Positions 33,156-53,873 of a stretch of DNA of 64,000 nucleotides are shown here, one piece after another. Source of the DNA: Escherichia phage EcoM2; sequence record PQ818761.1; one strand, given 5' to 3'. The notes beneath the pieces were generated by a model that saw only the letters and a program-made list of their open reading frames with translations, had not been told where the DNA came from and made no database searches. The translations under genes and the position numbers were made by a program. Position 1 is the stretch's first letter, and each line of letters begins with the position of its first letter.

Positions 33156-33230
33156 TAGTCCAAGTAGCTTATATGGTTAAAGCGCGTGTCTGAAAAACAT
33201 GAGAAGAGGGTTCAAATCCCACTGGACTAC
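33156..33230 (+). tRNA. tRNA-Phe (anticodon GAA)
   Basis: Acceptor TAGTCCA/TGGACTA; anticodon stem CGTGT/ACATG loop CTGAAAA; T-loop TTCAAAT; 3' CAA (CCA not encoded). Confidence 0.55.
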
Positions 33231-33248
33231 CAATTTCAAAGGTGCTTA

Positions 33249-33983
33249 ATGAAAGAGATGACAGAACAAGGTAAGGAGATTTTTAATCTCTTAAAAACCG
33301 GTAGAGGGTTTTCTAATCCCCTTATTACTGGTGCAGCAGTTCTAGGTGGAACCGTAGCTGCCTCTACATCACTTGTAAGCTCTATTAGCTCTGTAACAGA
33401 CCCTACAATAAAGGATAAGCTTGTTGCCGCTGGACTGACAACAGTTCTGCTTAACAGCTTTACAACGAGTCTGACAAGCACTACATCAACTACTAAGACA
33501 TTGACAGATTATGGTCAAAAGTCTATTGATGAGTTTTCCTCACGTATGCAGGTAGCAAAAGGCTACTCCAATGTTATGGGTGCAGCAGGAGAGCAAGTTG
33601 GTTGTACACCATTTAGTGGTATTATGGGTGTTGCTACAGAGTATGGTCAAAAAGCTATTGACACAATTAACAGTGCACTAGACGGTGTTAATGATGTATT
33701 AAGTGACTTACAAGATGCTATTGATAAAGGTCTTGATACTGTTTCTGATTTAGCTAACCAAGCTGTTAGTAAGATTAATGAAGGTATCTCGAAGATTACA
33801 GCTTATGCAGATGAAGTTGTGCAGATGATTGAAGAAGAAGCTGCCCTTATTGCAGAGTACCTTAAAACGAATATCAATGGGTTCTTAGCAGGTATCTTAC
33901 CAGACTGGTTTGATGATGCTTGTAAAACTGGTGTAATTGACACTATTGCAACACCAGAAATGAAGAACGCATTACAGAAATAA
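33249..33983 (+). CDS. hypothetical protein (Ser/Thr-rich N-terminal region, acidic helical C-terminus)
   Basis: ATG 33249 with AAAGG RBS; track ORF start 33186 rejected because it overlaps tRNA-Phe. Confidence 0.5.
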   Translation: MKEMTEQGKEIFNLLKTGRGFSNPLITGAAVLGGTVAASTSLVSSISSVTDPTIKDKLVAAGLTTVLLNSFTTSLTSTTSTTKTLTDYGQKSIDEFSSRMQVAKGYSNVMGAAGEQVGCTPFSGIMGVATEYGQKAIDTINSALDGVNDVLSDLQDAIDKGLDTVSDLANQAVSKINEGISKITAYADEVVQMIEEEAALIAEYLKTNINGFLAGILPDWFDDACKTGVIDTIATPEMKNALQK

Positions 33984-33984
33984 T

Positions 33985-34077
33985 GGAAGATTAACCCTAA
34001 AAGGTAAGGGAGCAGTTTGCTAAACTGCCAGTAGCTGAGAAATCGGTGTACCAGTTCAAGTCTGGTATCTTCCTCCA
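33985..34077 (+). tRNA. tRNA-Ser (anticodon GCT), class II
   Basis: Acceptor GGAAGAT/ATCTTCC; D-arm CCC-TAAAAGGTAA-GGG; anticodon stem GCAGT/ACTGC loop TTGCTAA; ~21-nt variable arm; T-arm ACCAG-TTCAAGT-CTGGT; CCA encoded. Confidence 0.6.
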
Positions 34078-34081
34078 ATTT

Positions 34082-34157
34082 GAATCCGTGACAGAAATGG
34101 CTATGTGCCTGTCTGCAAAACAGGTTTATAAGGGTTCGAGTCCCTTCGGATTCTCCA
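34082..34157 (+). tRNA. tRNA-Cys (anticodon GCA)
   Basis: Acceptor GAATCCG/CGGATTC; anticodon stem CCTGT/ACAGG loop CTGCAAA; T-arm AAGGG-TTCGAGT-CCCTT; CCA encoded. Confidence 0.6.
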
Positions 34158-34194
34158 AGTTATTTTACTCTCTCTCAATTAAAATAATAATAAT

Positions 34195-34254
34195 GCCCTG
34201 CTATAAGTATTCTTCCTTTCGCTACCGAAGAGTATTTTTAGACAGGGCTTTTTT
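34195..34254 (+). terminator. compound rho-independent terminator (nested hairpins plus T-runs)
   Basis: Outer stem GCCCTG ... CAGGGC followed by TTTTTT; inner hairpin with TTTTT. Confidence 0.55.
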
Positions 34255-34319
34255 ACAGAGTTATACTTTATAAGAAGCCTTATACAGTATGTCTCTGACG
34301 TACATTGTGGTTTCTCCTT

Positions 34320-40298: not shown

Positions 40299-41402
40299 AT
40301 GTTGACTAATTCTGAAAAAAGCAGATTTTTCCTTGCTGACCTGACTGGTGAAGTCCAGTCTATCCCAAATACTTATGGGTATATTTCCAACTTAGGTCTG
40401 TTCCGTTCAGCACCAATCACCCAAACTACTTTCCTTATGGACTTGACTGATTGGGATGTTAGCTTGCTTGATGCGGTAGACCGTGATAGCCGTAAAGCAG
40501 AGACTAGCGCACCTGAGCGTGTTCGTCAAATCAGCTTCCCAATGATGTACTTCAAAGAAGTTGAAAGCATCACTCCTGATGAAATTCAGGGTGTACGTCA
40601 GCCAGGCACTGCAAACGAGCTTACTACTGAAGCTGTAGTACGTGCTAAGAAGCTGATGAAGATTCGTACCAAGTTCGATATTACTCGTGAGTTCCTGTTT
40701 ATGCAAGCTCTGAAGGGTAAAGTTGTTGATGCTCGTGGTACTCTGTATGCTGACCTGTACAAGCAGTTCGATGTTGAGAAGAAGACTGTTTACTTCGACC
40801 TTGACAACCCTAATGCGGATATCGACGCTTCTATTGAAGAACTGCGTATGCACATGGAAGATGAAGCTAAGACTGGCACTGTAATCAACGGTGAAGAAAT
40901 TCACGTAGTTGTTGACCGTGTGTTCTTCAGCAAGCTGACTAAACATCCTAAGATTCGTGATGCTTATCTTGCACAGCAGACTCCGCTGGCTTGGCAACAG
41001 ATTACTGGTTCTCTGAGAACTGGTGGTACTGACGGCGTTCAGGCTCATATGAACACCTTCTACTACGGTGGTGTTAAGTTTGTCCAGTACAACGGTAAGT
41101 TCAAAGACAAGCGCGGTAAGGTTCACACTCTGGTGAGCATTGATGGTGCAGCAGCAACTGTTGGTGTTGGTCATGCCTTCCCTAACGTTTCTATGCTGGG
41201 TGAAGCAAACAACATCTTCGAAGTGGCTTATGGTCCATGTCCTAAGATGGGTTACGCAAATACACTTGGTCAGGAACTGTACGTATTCGAATACGAAAAA
41301 GACCGTGACGAAGGTATTGACTTCGAAGCTCACTCTTACATGCTGCCATACTGTACTCGTCCTCAGTTGCTGGTAGATGTTCGTGCTGACGCCAAAGACT
41401 AA
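40299..41402 (+). CDS. major capsid protein (putative, HK97-like)
   Basis: 367 aa directly after protease/decoration genes; typical size and position. Confidence 0.6.
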   Translation: MLTNSEKSRFFLADLTGEVQSIPNTYGYISNLGLFRSAPITQTTFLMDLTDWDVSLLDAVDRDSRKAETSAPERVRQISFPMMYFKEVESITPDEIQGVRQPGTANELTTEAVVRAKKLMKIRTKFDITREFLFMQALKGKVVDARGTLYADLYKQFDVEKKTVYFDLDNPNADIDASIEELRMHMEDEAKTGTVINGEEIHVVVDRVFFSKLTKHPKIRDAYLAQQTPLAWQQITGSLRTGGTDGVQAHMNTFYYGGVKFVQYNGKFKDKRGKVHTLVSIDGAAATVGVGHAFPNVSMLGEANNIFEVAYGPCPKMGYANTLGQELYVFEYEKDRDEGIDFEAHSYMLPYCTRPQLLVDVRADAKD

Positions 41403-42355: not shown

Positions 42356-42753
42356 GACTCTTAAACAGACACAGCTTTGTAGTAAAGCGTAAAGTCTCTG
42401 AAGACGGTTATTATAATGATGATGGTGATTGGGTAGCTTCACAAGATATTGTAGAGGTTAACTGTAAAGGTAATATCCAGCCATATATCAAAGGTTCTGT
42501 AAAGAACGGTACACAGATTGCTTTACCGGAAGGTATTAGACTTACCGATACAAGAATCCTGTACACTACATATAAACTTAGAACTTCAGATGATGTAGAG
42601 TGGAATGAGTCTGATATTGTTATGATTGACGGTCATGAGTATGAAGTATTTATGACTATGGATTGGTCACAACAATTAGCCCATACATCCCATTATGAAT
42701 ATATCATTATTAGAAGGGATAAAATGAATGCAGTTAGAAACAGCAGAACTTGA
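42352..42753 (+). CDS. head closure / tail completion protein (putative)
   Basis: 133-aa ORF. Confidence 0.3.
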   Translation: MRLLNRHSFVVKRKVSEDGYYNDDGDWVASQDIVEVNCKGNIQPYIKGSVKNGTQIALPEGIRLTDTRILYTTYKLRTSDDVEWNESDIVMIDGHEYEVFMTMDWSQQLAHTSHYEYIIIRRDKMNAVRNSRT

Positions 42754-43327
42754 AAAAGGTCTAGTTAGAACCTTAGTGGATGTTATTGGTCACAGATTAG
42801 CTCGTGATAAAAATAATAGACCAAACGTAATTAGAGCTTACCCTTCTGATAACTCAAATGACAAAGGTTTAAAACCTGACCAGCCATTTATTACCGTATA
42901 TTGTCAAGATGCTGCAACACCTTATGGTTGGGTTCTTGATAAATTTGTTGAAGATGATGTAGTTTGCTACAGAATTGCTTTTCAGATTCCTGTATTGATT
43001 ACGGTAAATGGTAAGGGTGCTCACAGTATCATGCTTGAGCTTAAACAACGATTAGAGATGAGTTCAGTCAGAGATTTAATCCTTGAAGAAACGGGGGCCA
43101 CAGTACTAGATACTGGAGCAATCCCGAATGACTATACTTATCTCAATACAGATTTCGAAAATTCTGCACCTCTTGTTGTAACTCTTGTAAAAAATTCAGT
43201 CCTGAAAGATGAACGTGGAAGTATTATTGAGCGTGTCATTGCTGATGGTGAGTTAGTTTACGAAGAAGGACAAGAGCCACCAGAATATACTATCCATCTA
43301 GATGTAGACTCCAAAGGGGTAAAATAA
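42728..43327 (+). CDS. tail completion/terminator protein (putative)
   Basis: 199-aa ORF preceding sheath-like gene. Confidence 0.3.
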   Translation: MQLETAELEKGLVRTLVDVIGHRLARDKNNRPNVIRAYPSDNSNDKGLKPDQPFITVYCQDAATPYGWVLDKFVEDDVVCYRIAFQIPVLITVNGKGAHSIMLELKQRLEMSSVRDLILEETGATVLDTGAIPNDYTYLNTDFENSAPLVVTLVKNSVLKDERGSIIERVIADGELVYEEGQEPPEYTIHLDVDSKGVK

Positions 43328-44680
43328 ATGTGGAATCCAATTGTTAATGTAGATATTACATTGAACACCGCAGGAACTACAAGAGAAGGTTTTGGCTTGC
43401 CACTATTCTTAGCTTCAACAGACAACTTTGAAGAAAGAGTGCGTGGCTACACTTCCTTAACTGAAGTTGCTGAAGATTTCGATGAAAACTCTGCTGCATA
43501 TAAAGCTGCTAAACAACTTTGGAGTCAGACTCCTAAAGTAACTCAGCTTTATATTGGTAGACGTGCTATGCAGTACACTGTATCAATTCCTGATGCCGTT
43601 GCCGAAAGTACAGACTACTCAATTACTGTAGCTGCTGGCGGTGGAATTTCTCAACCATATCAGTATACAGCAGTGGAATCAGATACTGCTGAGAAAGTTT
43701 TGCAACAGTTTAAAACACAGATTGAAGCTGACCCAACAATCAAAGACAAGGTTTCTGTGAACGTAACTGGTAGTGGTGGTTCTGCCACAATGGTTATCAC
43801 CAAAGCTGGTGACAATGACTTTGTAAAAGTAACAACCACAGCACAGACTGTATATATTGCAAGTACAACTGCCGATACAGCATCAACCGCTCTAGCAGCT
43901 ATTGAAGCTTATTCAACTGACTGGTATTTCATTGCAGCAGAAGATAGAACTCAACAGTTTGTCTTAGCAATGGCTTCTGAGATTCAAGCTCGTAAGAAAA
44001 TCTTCTTTACAGCTAACTCAGATGTAACAGCACTACAGGGCACAGAATTGGCTAGTGCAAATGATGTTCCAGCACAGCTTGCTAAGAGCATGTACACTCG
44101 TACAGTTTGTTTGTGGCATCACACAGCAGCAGAAGACTATCCAGAAATGGCATACATTGCTTATGGTGCTCCATATGATGCAGGGTCAATTGCTTGGGGT
44201 AATGCACAGCTCACTGGTGTAGCTGCTTCTCTACAACCAACTAATAAGAGACCACTAACAAGTATTCAGAAATCTGCTTTAGATGCACGTCACTGTAACT
44301 TTATTGACCTTGATGGTGGTGTTCCAGTGGTTCGTAGAGGGATTACTTCTGGTGGGGAATGGATTGATATCATCCGTGGTGTTGACTGGTTAGAATCAGA
44401 CCTGAAAACTGCTCTGAGAGACTTGCTAATTAACCAGAAGGGTGGTAAGATTACTTATGATGATACTGGTATTACTCGTATTCGTCAAGTCATTGAAACC
44501 TCTCTGCAAAGAGCAGTCAACAGAAACTTCCTGTCATCTTACACAGTTAATGTTCCTAAAGCCTCTCAAGTTGCTTTGGCAGACAAGAAAGCTCGTATCC
44601 TGAAAGATATTACCTTCGCAGGTATCTTAGCAGGGGCTATCTTGGATGTTGACTTGAAAGGTACAGTGGCTTACGAATAA
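43328..44680 (+). CDS. tail sheath protein (putative)
   Basis: 450 aa followed by 148-aa tube-like gene, two small chaperone ORFs and tape measure (P2 FI-FII-E-E'-T order). Confidence 0.5.
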   Translation: MWNPIVNVDITLNTAGTTREGFGLPLFLASTDNFEERVRGYTSLTEVAEDFDENSAAYKAAKQLWSQTPKVTQLYIGRRAMQYTVSIPDAVAESTDYSITVAAGGGISQPYQYTAVESDTAEKVLQQFKTQIEADPTIKDKVSVNVTGSGGSATMVITKAGDNDFVKVTTTAQTVYIASTTADTASTALAAIEAYSTDWYFIAAEDRTQQFVLAMASEIQARKKIFFTANSDVTALQGTELASANDVPAQLAKSMYTRTVCLWHHTAAEDYPEMAYIAYGAPYDAGSIAWGNAQLTGVAASLQPTNKRPLTSIQKSALDARHCNFIDLDGGVPVVRRGITSGGEWIDIIRGVDWLESDLKTALRDLLINQKGGKITYDDTGITRIRQVIETSLQRAVNRNFLSSYTVNVPKASQVALADKKARILKDITFAGILAGAILDVDLKGTVAYE

Positions 44681-44695
44681 TAGAGGTAAATTGGA

Positions 44696-45142
44696 ATGGC
44701 TATGTATCAGCAATATTCCCCTAAAGACGTTGTATGTAGCTGGAATGGTATTGCCATTGAAGGCTTTGCCCCAGACTCTTTCTTACGTCTACAGAGAACA
44801 TCACCACTCGTGACACCAGTCGTTGGTGCGGGTGGTCAAGTTGCTCTGACAAGAAATGCAGACAAGACAGGTACTATTGAGATTGAGCTAATGCAGACTT
44901 CTCTCTCTAACCAGATGCTTTCTGCAATTCAAGCTAAACAAGACAATATGGAACTTGAAGAAGATATCTCTTCTAACTTCGTAATCTACGACCCATCAGG
45001 CTCTGTTCTGGCAACTGGTATTAATGCTTGGTTGCAGGAATTACCACAGATTGAACTTGGTCGTGACCAGAACTCTAAAACTTGGATTTTTGGTTGTGAG
45101 AAGTTAGACTACACTTCTACAATTCCAGCGTCAAGTGTTTAA
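44696..45142 (+). CDS. tail tube protein (putative)
   Basis: 148 aa directly after sheath-like gene. Confidence 0.5.
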   Translation: MAMYQQYSPKDVVCSWNGIAIEGFAPDSFLRLQRTSPLVTPVVGAGGQVALTRNADKTGTIEIELMQTSLSNQMLSAIQAKQDNMELEEDISSNFVIYDPSGSVLATGINAWLQELPQIELGRDQNSKTWIFGCEKLDYTSTIPASSV

Positions 45143-45154
45143 TAAATCCTATAA

Positions 45155-45187
45155 GGGGGAGACTTTAAAAGGTCTTCCCCTTTTTTT
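45155..45187 (+). terminator. rho-independent terminator / attenuator
   Basis: GGGGAGAC ... GGTCTTCCCC hairpin followed by TTTTTTTGTTT. Confidence 0.5.
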
Positions 45188-45216
45188 GTTTCTTTTAAAA
45201 GTATTAAGGAATCACA

Positions 45217-45615
45217 ATGAAAACAGAATCTAGAGTAATTAATGGTAAGAAAGTAAATATCGTTCTGCTTGGGGCAAGAGATGGTATTAAGATGTCTATG
45301 AAGTTGGGTAAAATTGTTGTCCCCACTTTTGCACAGATGCTGTCAAGTCTGACTGACAAGGGTAAGAAAGAAGCTCCAATGGTTCCATTTAAAGAACTTG
45401 TTGAAGCTTGTTTTGACAGAATTGAAGAAATTAACCTTGAAGAAATGGCTACCCTGTTATTTCAAGGGGCAACTGTTGATGACTTCCCACTTAATATTGA
45501 TACATACTTCCAAGCAAACTATGGTGAATTTATTGATTACTTAGCATTTGCGCTGGAGGCAAACTTCGGAAGTTTTTTCGAAGCAAGCATTTTCAAAAGC
45601 CTAACTTCTCAGTAA
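45217..45615 (+). CDS. tail assembly chaperone (gpE/G-like)
   Basis: 132 aa; immediately upstream of tape measure; slippery heptamer T_TTT_TTC near 3' end. Confidence 0.5.
   Translation: MKTESRVINGKKVNIVLLGARDGIKMSMKLGKIVVPTFAQMLSSLTDKGKKEAPMVPFKELVEACFDRIEEINLEEMATLLFQGATVDDFPLNIDTYFQANYGEFIDYLAFALEANFGSFFEASIFKSLTSQ
45573..45579 (+). promoter_or_regulatory. candidate -1 programmed ribosomal frameshift slippery site (T TTT TTC)
   Basis: X_XXY_YYZ heptamer in frame of 45217..45615; -1 frame is open from 45537 through 45857. Confidence 0.4.
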
Positions 45616-45617
45616 AC

Positions 45618-45856
45618 ATGGGTAACACTCTACAGACACCACTGACTGATGCTGCTGTAGAGGCAACCTATGAAGAAGCAGACGAGATGAAATTTGTGCT
45701 TGCTATTTATGGTATGGAAGGGTGTAAAGAAACACTTGACCAACTCTTTGCTATGACATTCTCTGATTTATTATCATTGAGACAATTTCTTGAGATTCAG
45801 AGGTCGTATAAAGAGGAAATTGCTTACAACGAACTTAGAAGAGCAGGAAAAATGTA

Positions 45857-45857
<1 letters not shown>
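45618..45857 (+). CDS. tail assembly chaperone C-terminal extension (gpE'/T-like)
   Basis: 79-aa ORF in the -1 frame relative to the preceding chaperone. Confidence 0.45.

Positions 45858-53873
<8,016 letters not shown>

What the first reader, a model, noticed from the sequence alone, without database searches (positions are those of the whole stretch)
45217..45857. Candidate -1 programmed frameshift in the tail assembly chaperone pair upstream of the tape measure gene
The heptamer T_TTT_TTC (45573-45579) lies in frame near the 3' end of 45217..45615, and the -1 frame is open from 45537 through the downstream ORF to 45857. This would generate a longer fusion chaperone, the conserved G/GT-type arrangement in tailed phages, here with the second ORF also having its own ATG.
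Basis: partly seen in the sequence, partly recalled or inferred. Interest (0 to 1): 0.5.

Follow-up and report, generated by a model that had tools for sequence, protein, structure and literature searches.

The report
Tail chaperone frameshift in Felix O1-like phage
This is the ordinary, widely conserved ribosomal "slip" that lets a tailed phage make a short and a long version of its tail-assembly chaperone from two overlapping genes. It is real here by comparative evidence, it is already annotated in a sister genus, and it is usually missed in Felix O1-type genome records.

Summary
T_TTT_TTC (45573-45579) is in phase with ORF 45217..45615. The -1 frame is open from 45537 to the stop at 45857, giving a 213-aa fusion.

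The window is a Felixounavirus (Felix O1-like myophage). The gene order is sheath, tube, chaperone ORF1 (Pfam PF21822), ORF2, tape measure.

Evidence that the site is functional:
- The heptamer alone is not rare: there are 80 in-phase heptamers in the window. Only this one opens a long -1 extension (94 codons).
- It is kept in phase in every relative examined: 13 GenBank phages from about 8 genera, and 80/80 IMG/VR loci down to 23% protein identity, including 60-65% GC contigs.
- Synonymous codon choice alone would predict about 3.7 of 22 lineages; 22 of 22 have it.
- Nucleotide conservation across Ounavirinae peaks on the site (0.88 against a mean of 0.52). It is lowest around ORF2's ATG.
- That ATG has no Shine-Dalgarno sequence, is absent in most lineages, and is ATA in one Felixounavirus contig.

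No downstream stimulatory structure was found. A conserved GGAGG 13 nt upstream may act as a stimulator, as in dnaX.

Mooglevirus records and a 2015 paper already annotate this frameshift. No protein-level proof exists.

The parts
43328..44680 (+). Tail sheath gene (450 aa). Context only.
   Evidence: phrog_205 tail sheath, E=1.4e-124; PF11863.
44696..45142 (+). Tail tube gene (148 aa). By analogy with lambda gpV, this is the inferred binding partner of the T part of the fusion.
   Evidence: phrog_280 and PF11681 KPP10_Orf10. Corresponds to the 16.3-kDa virion protein of Felix O1 (PMC3185647).
45153..45192 (+). Intrinsic-terminator-like hairpin (13 pairs) followed by a T run, between the tube and chaperone genes. 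It probably lowers transcription into the chaperone and tape measure genes.
   Evidence: Consensus scan. Annotated as 'terminator' at the same place in Mordin, Mijalis and KhF3.
45217..45615 (+). Chaperone ORF1 ('G', 132 aa, 14.8 kDa), read in the zero frame. An AAGGA Shine-Dalgarno sequence lies at 45206-45210.
   Evidence: PF21822 Phage_TAC_15, E=1.7e-19; phrog_1613, E=2.9e-48. Protein identical to Felix O1 AAQ14792.1.
45555..45559 (+). GGAGG, an internal Shine-Dalgarno-like sequence 13 nt upstream of the heptamer. Candidate upstream stimulator of the slip. This is inferred, not shown.
   Evidence: Read from the sequence. The Glu codon here is GAG in 18 of 22 lineages against 9.8 expected from local codon usage, P=1.7e-4. 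Sharma et al. searched for stimulatory SD-like sequences 6-17 nt upstream of frameshift motifs, and 13 nt falls in that range (PMC4066793).
45573..45579 (+). Slippery heptamer T_TTT_TTC, the site of the -1 tandem slip of two tRNA-Phe.
   Evidence: In phase. Conserved in every sequenced relative examined. Belongs to the H_HH.U_UU.Y class, among the most efficient motifs in E. coli (PMC4066793).
45579..45857 (+). -1 frame extension ('T' part, 92 codons plus stop). It is reached only by the frameshift. The first 12 codons (45579-45614) overlap the tail of ORF1. The fusion is join(45217..45579,45579..45857), 213 aa, 24.2 kDa.
   Evidence: The peptide straight after the slip (R-x-x-x-F-x-K-P) is conserved from Felixounavirus to Vequintavirinae, although it lies upstream of any start codon. 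Nucleotide conservation peaks at 45565-45594.
45618..45620 (+). ATG of the annotated 'ORF2' (79 aa), 2 nt after ORF1's stop. Probably incidental.
   Evidence: No SD-like sequence in the 16 nt upstream. Lies in the least conserved stretch of the locus, 0.30 identity. Absent in Kolesnikvirus, P778, Arno162 and Vequintavirinae. Reads ATA in Felixounavirus contig L017.
45857..48085 (+). Tape measure protein gene (742 aa). Its ATG overlaps the stop of the T frame (TAATG).
   Evidence: phrog_4036, 1532 bits; PF20155 TMP_3. Sequence.

Best explanation
This is a lambda G/GT-type programmed -1 ribosomal frameshift in the tail assembly chaperone gene of a Felix O1-like myophage.

Most ribosomes translate 45217..45615 and release the 132-aa chaperone. 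With tRNA-Phe on UUU (P site) and on UUC (A site) at 45574-45579, a minority slip back one base onto UUU_UUU. They then read C45579-GA onward in the -1 frame to 45857, making a 213-aa fusion.

By analogy with lambda gpG/gpGT and P2 gpE/E+E', the common N-terminal part coats the tape measure protein (gene 45857..48085). The frameshift-only C-terminal part recruits the tube protein (44696..45142), so that the tube polymerises around the tape measure. Neither product stays in the virion.

Shown here: the signal, its phase, the open frame, the gene context and very deep conservation at the codon level. Inferred: that slipping happens, its rate, the protein partners, and a stimulatory role for the GGAGG 13 nt upstream. 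No downstream RNA structure appears to be involved in this lineage.
For: Anatomy.

Identity of the genes.

Conservation in an unbiased sample. tblastn and blastn hits were not selected on the motif. T_TTT_TTC is in phase with a 92-124-codon -1 extension in Felixounavirus, Suspvirus, Mooglevirus, Kolesnikvirus, P778, Arno162, Av-05 and CR3, at 26-82% chaperone identity.

IMG/VR sample:
- 80/80 loci have T_TTT_TTY, with -1 extensions of 76-125 codons.
- In 22 clusters at 50% identity or less, the slippery synonymous choice (NNT TTT) is present in 22 of 22. About 3.7 are expected from local codon usage.
- The joint probability is about 3e-21, or 2e-5 if only 9 independent lineages are allowed.
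- The site is kept even in 60-65% GC contigs, where TTT and NNT codons are rare.

Translation of the -1 frame upstream of any start codon:
- In Kolesnikvirus the T part has no ATG for 57 codons. Annotators left a gap or called a 37-aa stub.
- In most lineages the first ATG lies 35-76 codons in, cutting into the conserved domain.

Nucleotide conservation:
- It peaks on 45565-45594 and is lowest at ORF2's ATG.
- Blastn of Erwinia phages matches only window 45562-45602, at 92.7%.

Other support:
- One Felixounavirus contig has ATA in place of ORF2's ATG, with an otherwise identical T frame.
- The motif is efficient in E. coli, above 0.1% without any stimulator (PMC4066793).
- The homologous site is annotated as a joined CDS in Mordin and Mijalis and described for Moogle.
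- Felix O1 virion proteomics detected sheath, tube and tape measure but not the two proteins between them, as expected for chaperones (PMC3185647).
Against: There is no protein-level evidence for the fusion in any Felix O1-like phage in the literature I could search.

No significant downstream hairpin or pseudoknot was found in the window; z-scores run from +0.95 to -1.7. No consensus structure was found across Ounavirinae either. Efficiency may therefore be low.

In this genus ORF2 has its own ATG 2 nt after ORF1's stop. A free 79-aa product made by termination-reinitiation cannot be excluded.

The IMG/VR loci were retrieved with a peptide pattern that requires Phe-Phe. That sample therefore tests codon choice, not presence of the motif.

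The clusters are not fully independent phylogenetically.
Confidence: 0.85

Rival explanations
1. ORF2 is an independent gene. The 79-aa protein is made from its own ATG (45618), for example by termination-reinitiation after ORF1's TAA. The heptamer is merely the way Phe-Phe happens to be encoded.
For: An ATG lies 2 nt after the stop in 28 of 29 Felixounavirus/Suspvirus-type loci. Nearly all Felixounavirus GenBank and RefSeq records annotate two separate CDSs.
Against: No SD-like sequence precedes the ATG. The ATG region is the least conserved part of the locus. The start is missing or displaced in Kolesnikvirus, P778, Arno162 and Vequintavirinae, while the heptamer and the open -1 frame are invariant. 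The ATG is ATA in L017. The slippery codon choice is far beyond codon-usage expectation. The -1 peptide upstream of the ATG is conserved across subfamilies. This reading could still hold as a minor additional product in this genus.
Confidence: 0.07
2. The fusion is made by transcriptional slippage. RNA polymerase adds an extra U in the U6 run, so a fraction of mRNAs encode the fusion in one frame.
For: A homopolymeric T6 is present. A weak hairpin followed by the T run was flagged as terminator-like at 45553-45579. GenBank record CL1 has T7 and hence a single fused 213-aa CDS, which shows that a one-base insertion gives the same product.
Against: From general knowledge, productive slippage in bacteria typically needs runs of about 8-9 or more, and this run is only 6. 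The seventh base is C in 76 of 80 loci, although T would be synonymous and would lengthen the run. The run always sits in the exact X_XXY_YYZ phase. The phase argument is partly confounded by the conserved Phe-Phe.
Confidence: 0.05
3. The heptamer and the open frame are a chance juxtaposition with no recoding.
For: In-phase slippery heptamers are common in this AT-rich genome: 80 in the window.
Against: The -1 extension is a unique outlier. The site is conserved in 22 of 22 divergent lineages against codon usage.
Confidence: 0.01

Closest known systems
Tape measure chaperone frameshift of Mooglevirus phages Moogle, Mordin and Mijalis (Ounavirinae)
   Same: It is the homologous site. The TTTTTTC heptamer is identical and sits in the same conserved ..ANFGSFF.. 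motif. The fusion is 213 aa. The region is about 80% identical in nucleotides and 70% in protein to the window. [quoted passage not shown]
   Different: A different genus and host. There, the first ATG of the T part is 5 codons further downstream. The Mooglevirus records annotate the join, whereas every Felixounavirus record I inspected does not. One record, CL1, shows a fused CDS because it has T7.
Phage lambda gpG/gpGT and the conserved tail-chaperone frameshift of long-tailed phages (Xu, Hendrix and Duda 2004, cited from general knowledge; reviewed in PMC5009743)
   Same: Two overlapping ORFs lie between the major tail or tube gene and the tape measure gene. [quoted passage not shown] The products are not in the virion (for the review text; for this phage).
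   Different: There is no detectable sequence similarity to lambda G; the Pfam family is different (PF21822). The heptamer is T_TTT_TTC rather than lambda's G_GGA_AAG (from memory). The tail here is contractile.
Phage P2 gpE/E+E' (myovirus tail chaperone frameshift)
   Same: A contractile-tailed phage with a U-rich heptamer (T_TTT_TTG in P2, from memory). The review notes that P2-type frameshifting is part of the same conserved system.
   Different: A different protein family and a different gene order relative to sheath and tube. No homology was tested here.
E. coli dnaX -1 frameshift signal
   Same: An internal Shine-Dalgarno-like sequence lies upstream of the heptamer: GGAGG at 13 nt here, AGGGAG at about 10 nt in dnaX (from memory). 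The 6-17 nt range that Sharma et al. searched for stimulatory SD-like sequences is cited.
   Different: dnaX also has a strong downstream hairpin and uses A_AAA_AAG. No downstream structure was found here. The stimulatory role of the GGAGG is untested.

Membership tests
G/GT-type tail assembly chaperone -1 programmed frameshift | Two overlapping ORFs located between the major tail or tube gene and the tape measure gene | tested here: met
   Tube 44696-45142, ORF1 45217-45615, ORF2 frame to 45857, tape measure 45857-48085.
G/GT-type tail assembly chaperone -1 programmed frameshift | The upstream ORF is a recognised tail assembly chaperone | tested here: met
   PF21822 Phage_TAC_15, 71 bits against a cut-off of 22; phrog_1613, E=2.9e-48.
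G/GT-type tail assembly chaperone -1 programmed frameshift | [quoted passage not shown] | tested here: met
   T_TTT_TTC at 45573-45579, 11 codons before the stop codon. The -1 frame is open from 45537 to 45857.
G/GT-type tail assembly chaperone -1 programmed frameshift | The slippery site and frame arrangement are conserved in divergent relatives beyond what the protein sequence requires | tested here: met
   All sequenced relatives examined. 22 of 22 lineages against 3.7 expected.
G/GT-type tail assembly chaperone -1 programmed frameshift | The downstream ORF has no translation start of its own | tested here: inconclusive
   The window has an ATG at 45618 without an SD-like sequence. The start is absent or misplaced in most other lineages and is ATA in L017.
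G/GT-type tail assembly chaperone -1 programmed frameshift | A fusion protein is made at a low fixed ratio and is required for tail assembly | not testable with these tools
   No proteomic or genetic data were found. The exact fusion sequence is not in the 15-billion-protein collection.
G/GT-type tail assembly chaperone -1 programmed frameshift | The products are absent from mature virions | tested here: met
   From the literature only. The Felix O1 virion proteome lists gp63, gp64 and gp67 (sheath, tube, tape measure by mass) but not the two proteins between them (PMC3185647). ORF1 and ORF2 here are identical to the Felix O1 proteins.
dnaX-like, SD-stimulated -1 frameshift | A Shine-Dalgarno-like sequence in the range upstream of the heptamer where stimulation has been described | tested here: met
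   GGAGG at 45555-45559 with a 13-nt spacer. The GAG codon choice is enriched, 18 of 22, P=1.7e-4. The function is untested.
dnaX-like, SD-stimulated -1 frameshift | A downstream stimulatory hairpin 5-9 nt after the heptamer | tested here: not met
   Fold z-scores from +0.95 to -1.7. RNAalifold gives 0 consensus pairs across 7 Ounavirinae. No Rfam family matches.
Transcriptional slippage site | A homopolymer run long enough for RNA polymerase slippage (about 8-9 or more, from general knowledge) | tested here: not met
   The run is T6. The seventh base is C in 76 of 80 loci.

The most novel reading that the evidence does not exclude
The PF21822 chaperone family carries one fixed recoding cassette, GAGG-N13-U_UUU_UUC. 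It is preserved from Felix O1-like and rV5-like enterobacterial myophages to 60-65% GC uncultured phages. In this reading an upstream Shine-Dalgarno-like element, not a downstream structure, is the ancestral stimulator. The family's invariant protein motif E-x-N-[FY]-x-x-F-F would then be partly an imprint of the RNA signal. The phage's own tRNA-Phe(GAA) (33157-33232) might tune the slip rate.
Probability: 0.3. Interest if true: 0.35.

Novelty: already known. Interest (0 to 1): 0.18.

Why it matters
The main value is for annotation. Felix O1-type phages are used for Salmonella typing, biocontrol and therapy. Every Felixounavirus record I inspected lists the frameshift-only domain as a separate small gene ('hypothetical protein', 'tape measure chaperone'). 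Kolesnikvirus and Vequintavirinae records truncate it to stubs or omit it.

Writing the feature as join(45217..45579,45579..45857) would correct the proteome. It would also flag a site where synonymous recoding or engineering would probably abolish tail assembly.

Biologically it adds one more, very deeply conserved, example to a well-known class. It also offers a clean natural test set of U_UUU_UUC with an upstream SD-like sequence and no downstream structure.

Tried and rejected
Downstream stimulator. I folded 46-121 nt after the heptamer and found no significant structure. RNAalifold on 7 Ounavirinae gave no pairs. Rfam gave only sub-threshold noise. A 9-bp hairpin 7 nt downstream exists only in a GC-rich uncultured clade, with G-U changes but no compensatory pairs. 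It is not relevant to the window.

Hairpin across the slippery site. The MFE fold pairs CUUCGGAA with UUCGAAG across the slippery site. I dismissed it as a stimulator because the ribosome must already have melted it.

Second candidate. The next in-phase heptamer with a long -1 extension is TTTTTTA at 34249. I rejected it because the 'ORF' lies over tRNA-Ser and tRNA-Cys genes.

Solved structures. The fusion has no relative among solved structures by sequence.

Literature. I searched for a Felix O1, Felixounavirus or Bas63 frameshift. The Felix O1 genome paper, the Bas63 cryo-EM paper and the PhageMaP paper say nothing about it. Only the Moogle announcement mentions it.

Not attempted. I did not run structure prediction or the large protein-database searches. 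The Pfam and PHROG assignments already settle family membership, and the fold would not bear on whether the slip occurs.

Full report
**1. What is in the sequence**

Window 45573-45579 reads TTTTTTC. ORF 45217..45615 (132 aa) has codons AGT 45571-73, TTT 45574-76 and TTC 45577-79. The heptamer is therefore in phase as T_TTT_TTC, 11 codons before the TAA stop at 45613-15.

The -1 frame is closed just before 45537 and then open to the TAA at 45855-57. It contains the listed ORF 45618..45857 (79 aa). A -1 slip after decoding TTC gives join(45217..45579,45579..45857). The product is 213 aa and 24.2 kDa, against 14.8 kDa for ORF1 alone. The +1 frame closes after 9 codons. Every coordinate in the finding is correct.

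**2. Where we are**

The window is a Felixounavirus, a Felix O1-like virulent myophage of E. coli and Salmonella. It is about 98% identical over 1.8 kb to LF82P2, LMP34 and skuden, among 296 matching phage records. ORF1 and ORF2 are identical in protein sequence to Felix O1 AAQ14792.1 and AAQ14793.1.

The local gene order is as follows:
- Major capsid, 40299-41402.
- Tail terminator, 42728-43327.
- Sheath, 43328-44680.
- Tube, 44696-45142.
- ORF1, a tail assembly chaperone (PF21822 Phage_TAC_15, 71 bits against a cut-off of 22; phrog_1613).
- ORF2 (phrog_4963 'tail assembly chaperone'; no Pfam hit).
- Tape measure protein, 45857-48085 (phrog_4036; PF20155).
- A Dit-like baseplate protein.

A terminator-like hairpin at 45153-45192 separates the tube gene from the chaperone. 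Relatives annotate a terminator at the same place.

**3. Is it more than chance?**

The heptamer alone is not. The window holds 80 in-phase X_XXY_YYZ heptamers in 18,418 codons. The combination is unique, though. This site has a 94-codon -1 extension running past its own stop. The runner-up has 43 codons and lies in a spurious ORF over tRNA-Ser and tRNA-Cys genes.

**4. Comparative test**

*Relatives found by similarity alone, not selected on the motif.* All of the following have TTTTTTC in phase at the same place in the chaperone, with the -1 frame open for 92-124 codons up to the tape measure gene:

| Relative | Identity to ORF1 (aa) |
|---|---|
| Suspvirus mistaenkt | 82% |
| Mooglevirus Mordin | 76% |
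| Yersinia phage P778 | 49% |
| Pectobacterium phage Arno162 | 42% |
| Kolesnikvirus phiEa21-4, SE5, phiEa104 | 41% |
| Vequintavirinae Av-05 | 28% |
| Vequintavirinae CR3 | 27% |

*IMG/VR scan.* It returned 80 loci down to 23% identity. All 80 have T_TTT_TTY (76 TTTTTTC, 4 TTTTTTT), with -1 extensions of 76-125 codons. That scan required Phe-Phe at the protein level, so I tested codon choice instead.

*Codon-choice test.* In 22 clusters at 50% identity or less, the slippery choice (previous codon ending in T, first Phe = TTT) is present in 22 of 22. About 3.7 are expected from each locus's own codon usage. The joint probability is about 3e-21, or 2e-5 if only nine independent lineages are allowed. 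The choice is kept in 60-65% GC contigs, where TTT is 14-38% of Phe codons.

**5. Evidence that the -1 frame is translated from the slip site, not from ORF2's ATG**

- The peptide right after the slip (R-x-x-x-F-x-K-P) is conserved from Felixounavirus to Vequintavirinae, although no start codon precedes it in that frame.
- In Kolesnikvirus the first ATG in the T part is at codon 57 of 94. Annotators left the region empty or called a 37-aa stub. In most lineages the first ATG is 35-76 codons in.
- In the window the ATG has no SD-like sequence upstream.
- Across seven Ounavirinae, pairwise nucleotide identity peaks at 0.88 on 45565-45594, against a mean of 0.52. It falls to its minimum, 0.30, on 45610-45636, the stretch that holds the ATG.
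- In the distant blastn, the Erwinia phages match only window 45562-45602, at 92.7%.
- One 87-kb Felixounavirus contig (L017) has ATA in place of this ATG, with an otherwise identical T frame.

**6. How it probably works**

U_UUU_UUC belongs to the H_HH.U_UU.Y class. Sharma et al. found this class among the most efficient -1 motifs in E. coli, above 0.1% even without a stimulator, and it is used by IS elements (PMC4066793).

I found no downstream stimulator. Fold z-scores run from +0.95 to -1.7. There is no consensus structure in Ounavirinae and no Rfam match.

A GGAGG sits at 45555-45559, 13 nt upstream. That falls inside the 6-17 nt range that Sharma et al. searched for stimulatory SD-like sequences upstream of frameshift motifs. 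The Glu codon that forms it is GAG in 18 of 22 lineages against 9.8 expected (P=1.7e-4). An upstream stimulator of the dnaX kind is therefore plausible but untested. One GC-rich uncultured clade also has a 9-bp hairpin 7 nt downstream.

The protein function is inferred from the lambda G/GT model (review PMC5009743). The shared part binds the tape measure. The frameshift-only part recruits the tube protein. Both leave the finished tail. Consistent with this, Felix O1 virion proteomics found sheath, tube and tape measure but not these two proteins (PMC3185647).

**7. Rivals**

- *Independent translation of ORF2.* This is possible as a minor extra in this genus, but it is not the conserved mode (section 5).
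- *Transcriptional slippage.* It would give the same product. Record CL1 has T7 and a single fused CDS. However, the run is only six bases, and its seventh base is C in 76 of 80 loci although T would be synonymous.
- *Pure chance.* Excluded by section 4.

**8. Known or new?**

The homologous site is annotated as a joined CDS in Citrobacter phages Mordin and Mijalis. [quoted passage not shown]

The Felixounavirus records I inspected list two separate CDSs: skuden, ESCO45, VpaE1_ev78, EC6 RefSeq and BPS17S6. The Felix O1 genome paper does not mention a frameshift. The exact fusion sequence is absent from the 15-billion-protein collection.

So the feature is already known as a kind and at the homologous site in a sister genus. 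What is missing is annotation in this genus and any experimental proof.

**9. Verdict**

The feature is ordinary and of low interest, apart from its annotation value and a possible conserved upstream SD stimulator.

Noticed in passing
window 28699-34157: An array of 25 tRNA genes. It includes tRNA-Phe(GAA) at 33157-33232, which reads both codons of the slippery site, and tRNA-Ser(GCT) at 33985-34077, which reads the AGT codon just before it. Whether the phage's own tRNA-Phe affects the slip rate is unknown.
   Followed up: no
L009 (OK040806.1, Escherichia phage CL1), locus 957-963: This Felixounavirus record has T7 instead of T6 at the slippery site. It therefore annotates a single fused 213-aa 'tape measure chaperone' and no short form. 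This is either a homopolymer sequencing error or a viable fusion-only variant.
   Followed up: partly
L017 (IMGVR_UViG_3300045988_004167), homologous to window 45618-45620: An 87-kb Felixounavirus contig has ATA in place of ORF2's ATG, with an otherwise identical -1 frame. It is a natural knockout of the independent start.
   Followed up: partly
L012 (Av-05), L013 (CR3), L010 (phiEa104), L004 (phiEa21-4): The same TTTTTTC cassette is present in Vequintavirinae and Kolesnikvirus. In those records the frameshift-only domain is either not annotated or is truncated to an internal-ATG stub of 37-71 aa labelled 'hypothetical'. The annotation gap looks systematic.
   Followed up: partly
L068, L071, L074, L079, L082, L084, L085, L092 (IMG/VR, 57-65% GC), 7 nt after the heptamer: A GC-rich uncultured clade with the same chaperone family has a conserved 9-bp hairpin (CCGCGAGCG/CGCTCGCGG) at the classic stimulator distance. 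The z-score is -3.2 in L071. Only G-U one-sided changes occur, with no compensatory pairs.
   Followed up: partly
window 45153-45192: A strong terminator-like hairpin (13 pairs) followed by a T run lies between the tube gene and the chaperone gene. Relatives annotate it as a terminator. It probably sets a lower expression level for the chaperone and tape measure genes than for sheath and tube.
   Followed up: partly
window 45855-45859: The stop of the -1 (T) frame and the start of the tape measure gene overlap as TAATG. Ribosomes that have frameshifted therefore terminate on the tape measure start codon, which is a possible case of translational coupling.
   Followed up: no
L003 (LR597663.1, VpaE1_ev78): Product names in this record look wrongly assigned. 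The sheath is called 'Ad1 adapter', the tube 'Ne1 neck', the chaperone 'Hc1 head closure', ORF2 'Tc1 tail completion' and the tape measure 'Tail sheath protein'.
   Followed up: no
cluster of window ORF1: A member of ORF1's 90%-identity protein cluster is deposited as WP_252560994.1 from a Staphylococcus hyicus assembly. This is most likely phage contamination of that assembly.
   Followed up: no
window 34046-34273: This mechanical ORF has an in-phase TTTTTTA and a 43-codon -1 extension. It overlaps tRNA-Ser and tRNA-Cys genes, so it is not a gene and not a second frameshift candidate.
   Followed up: yes
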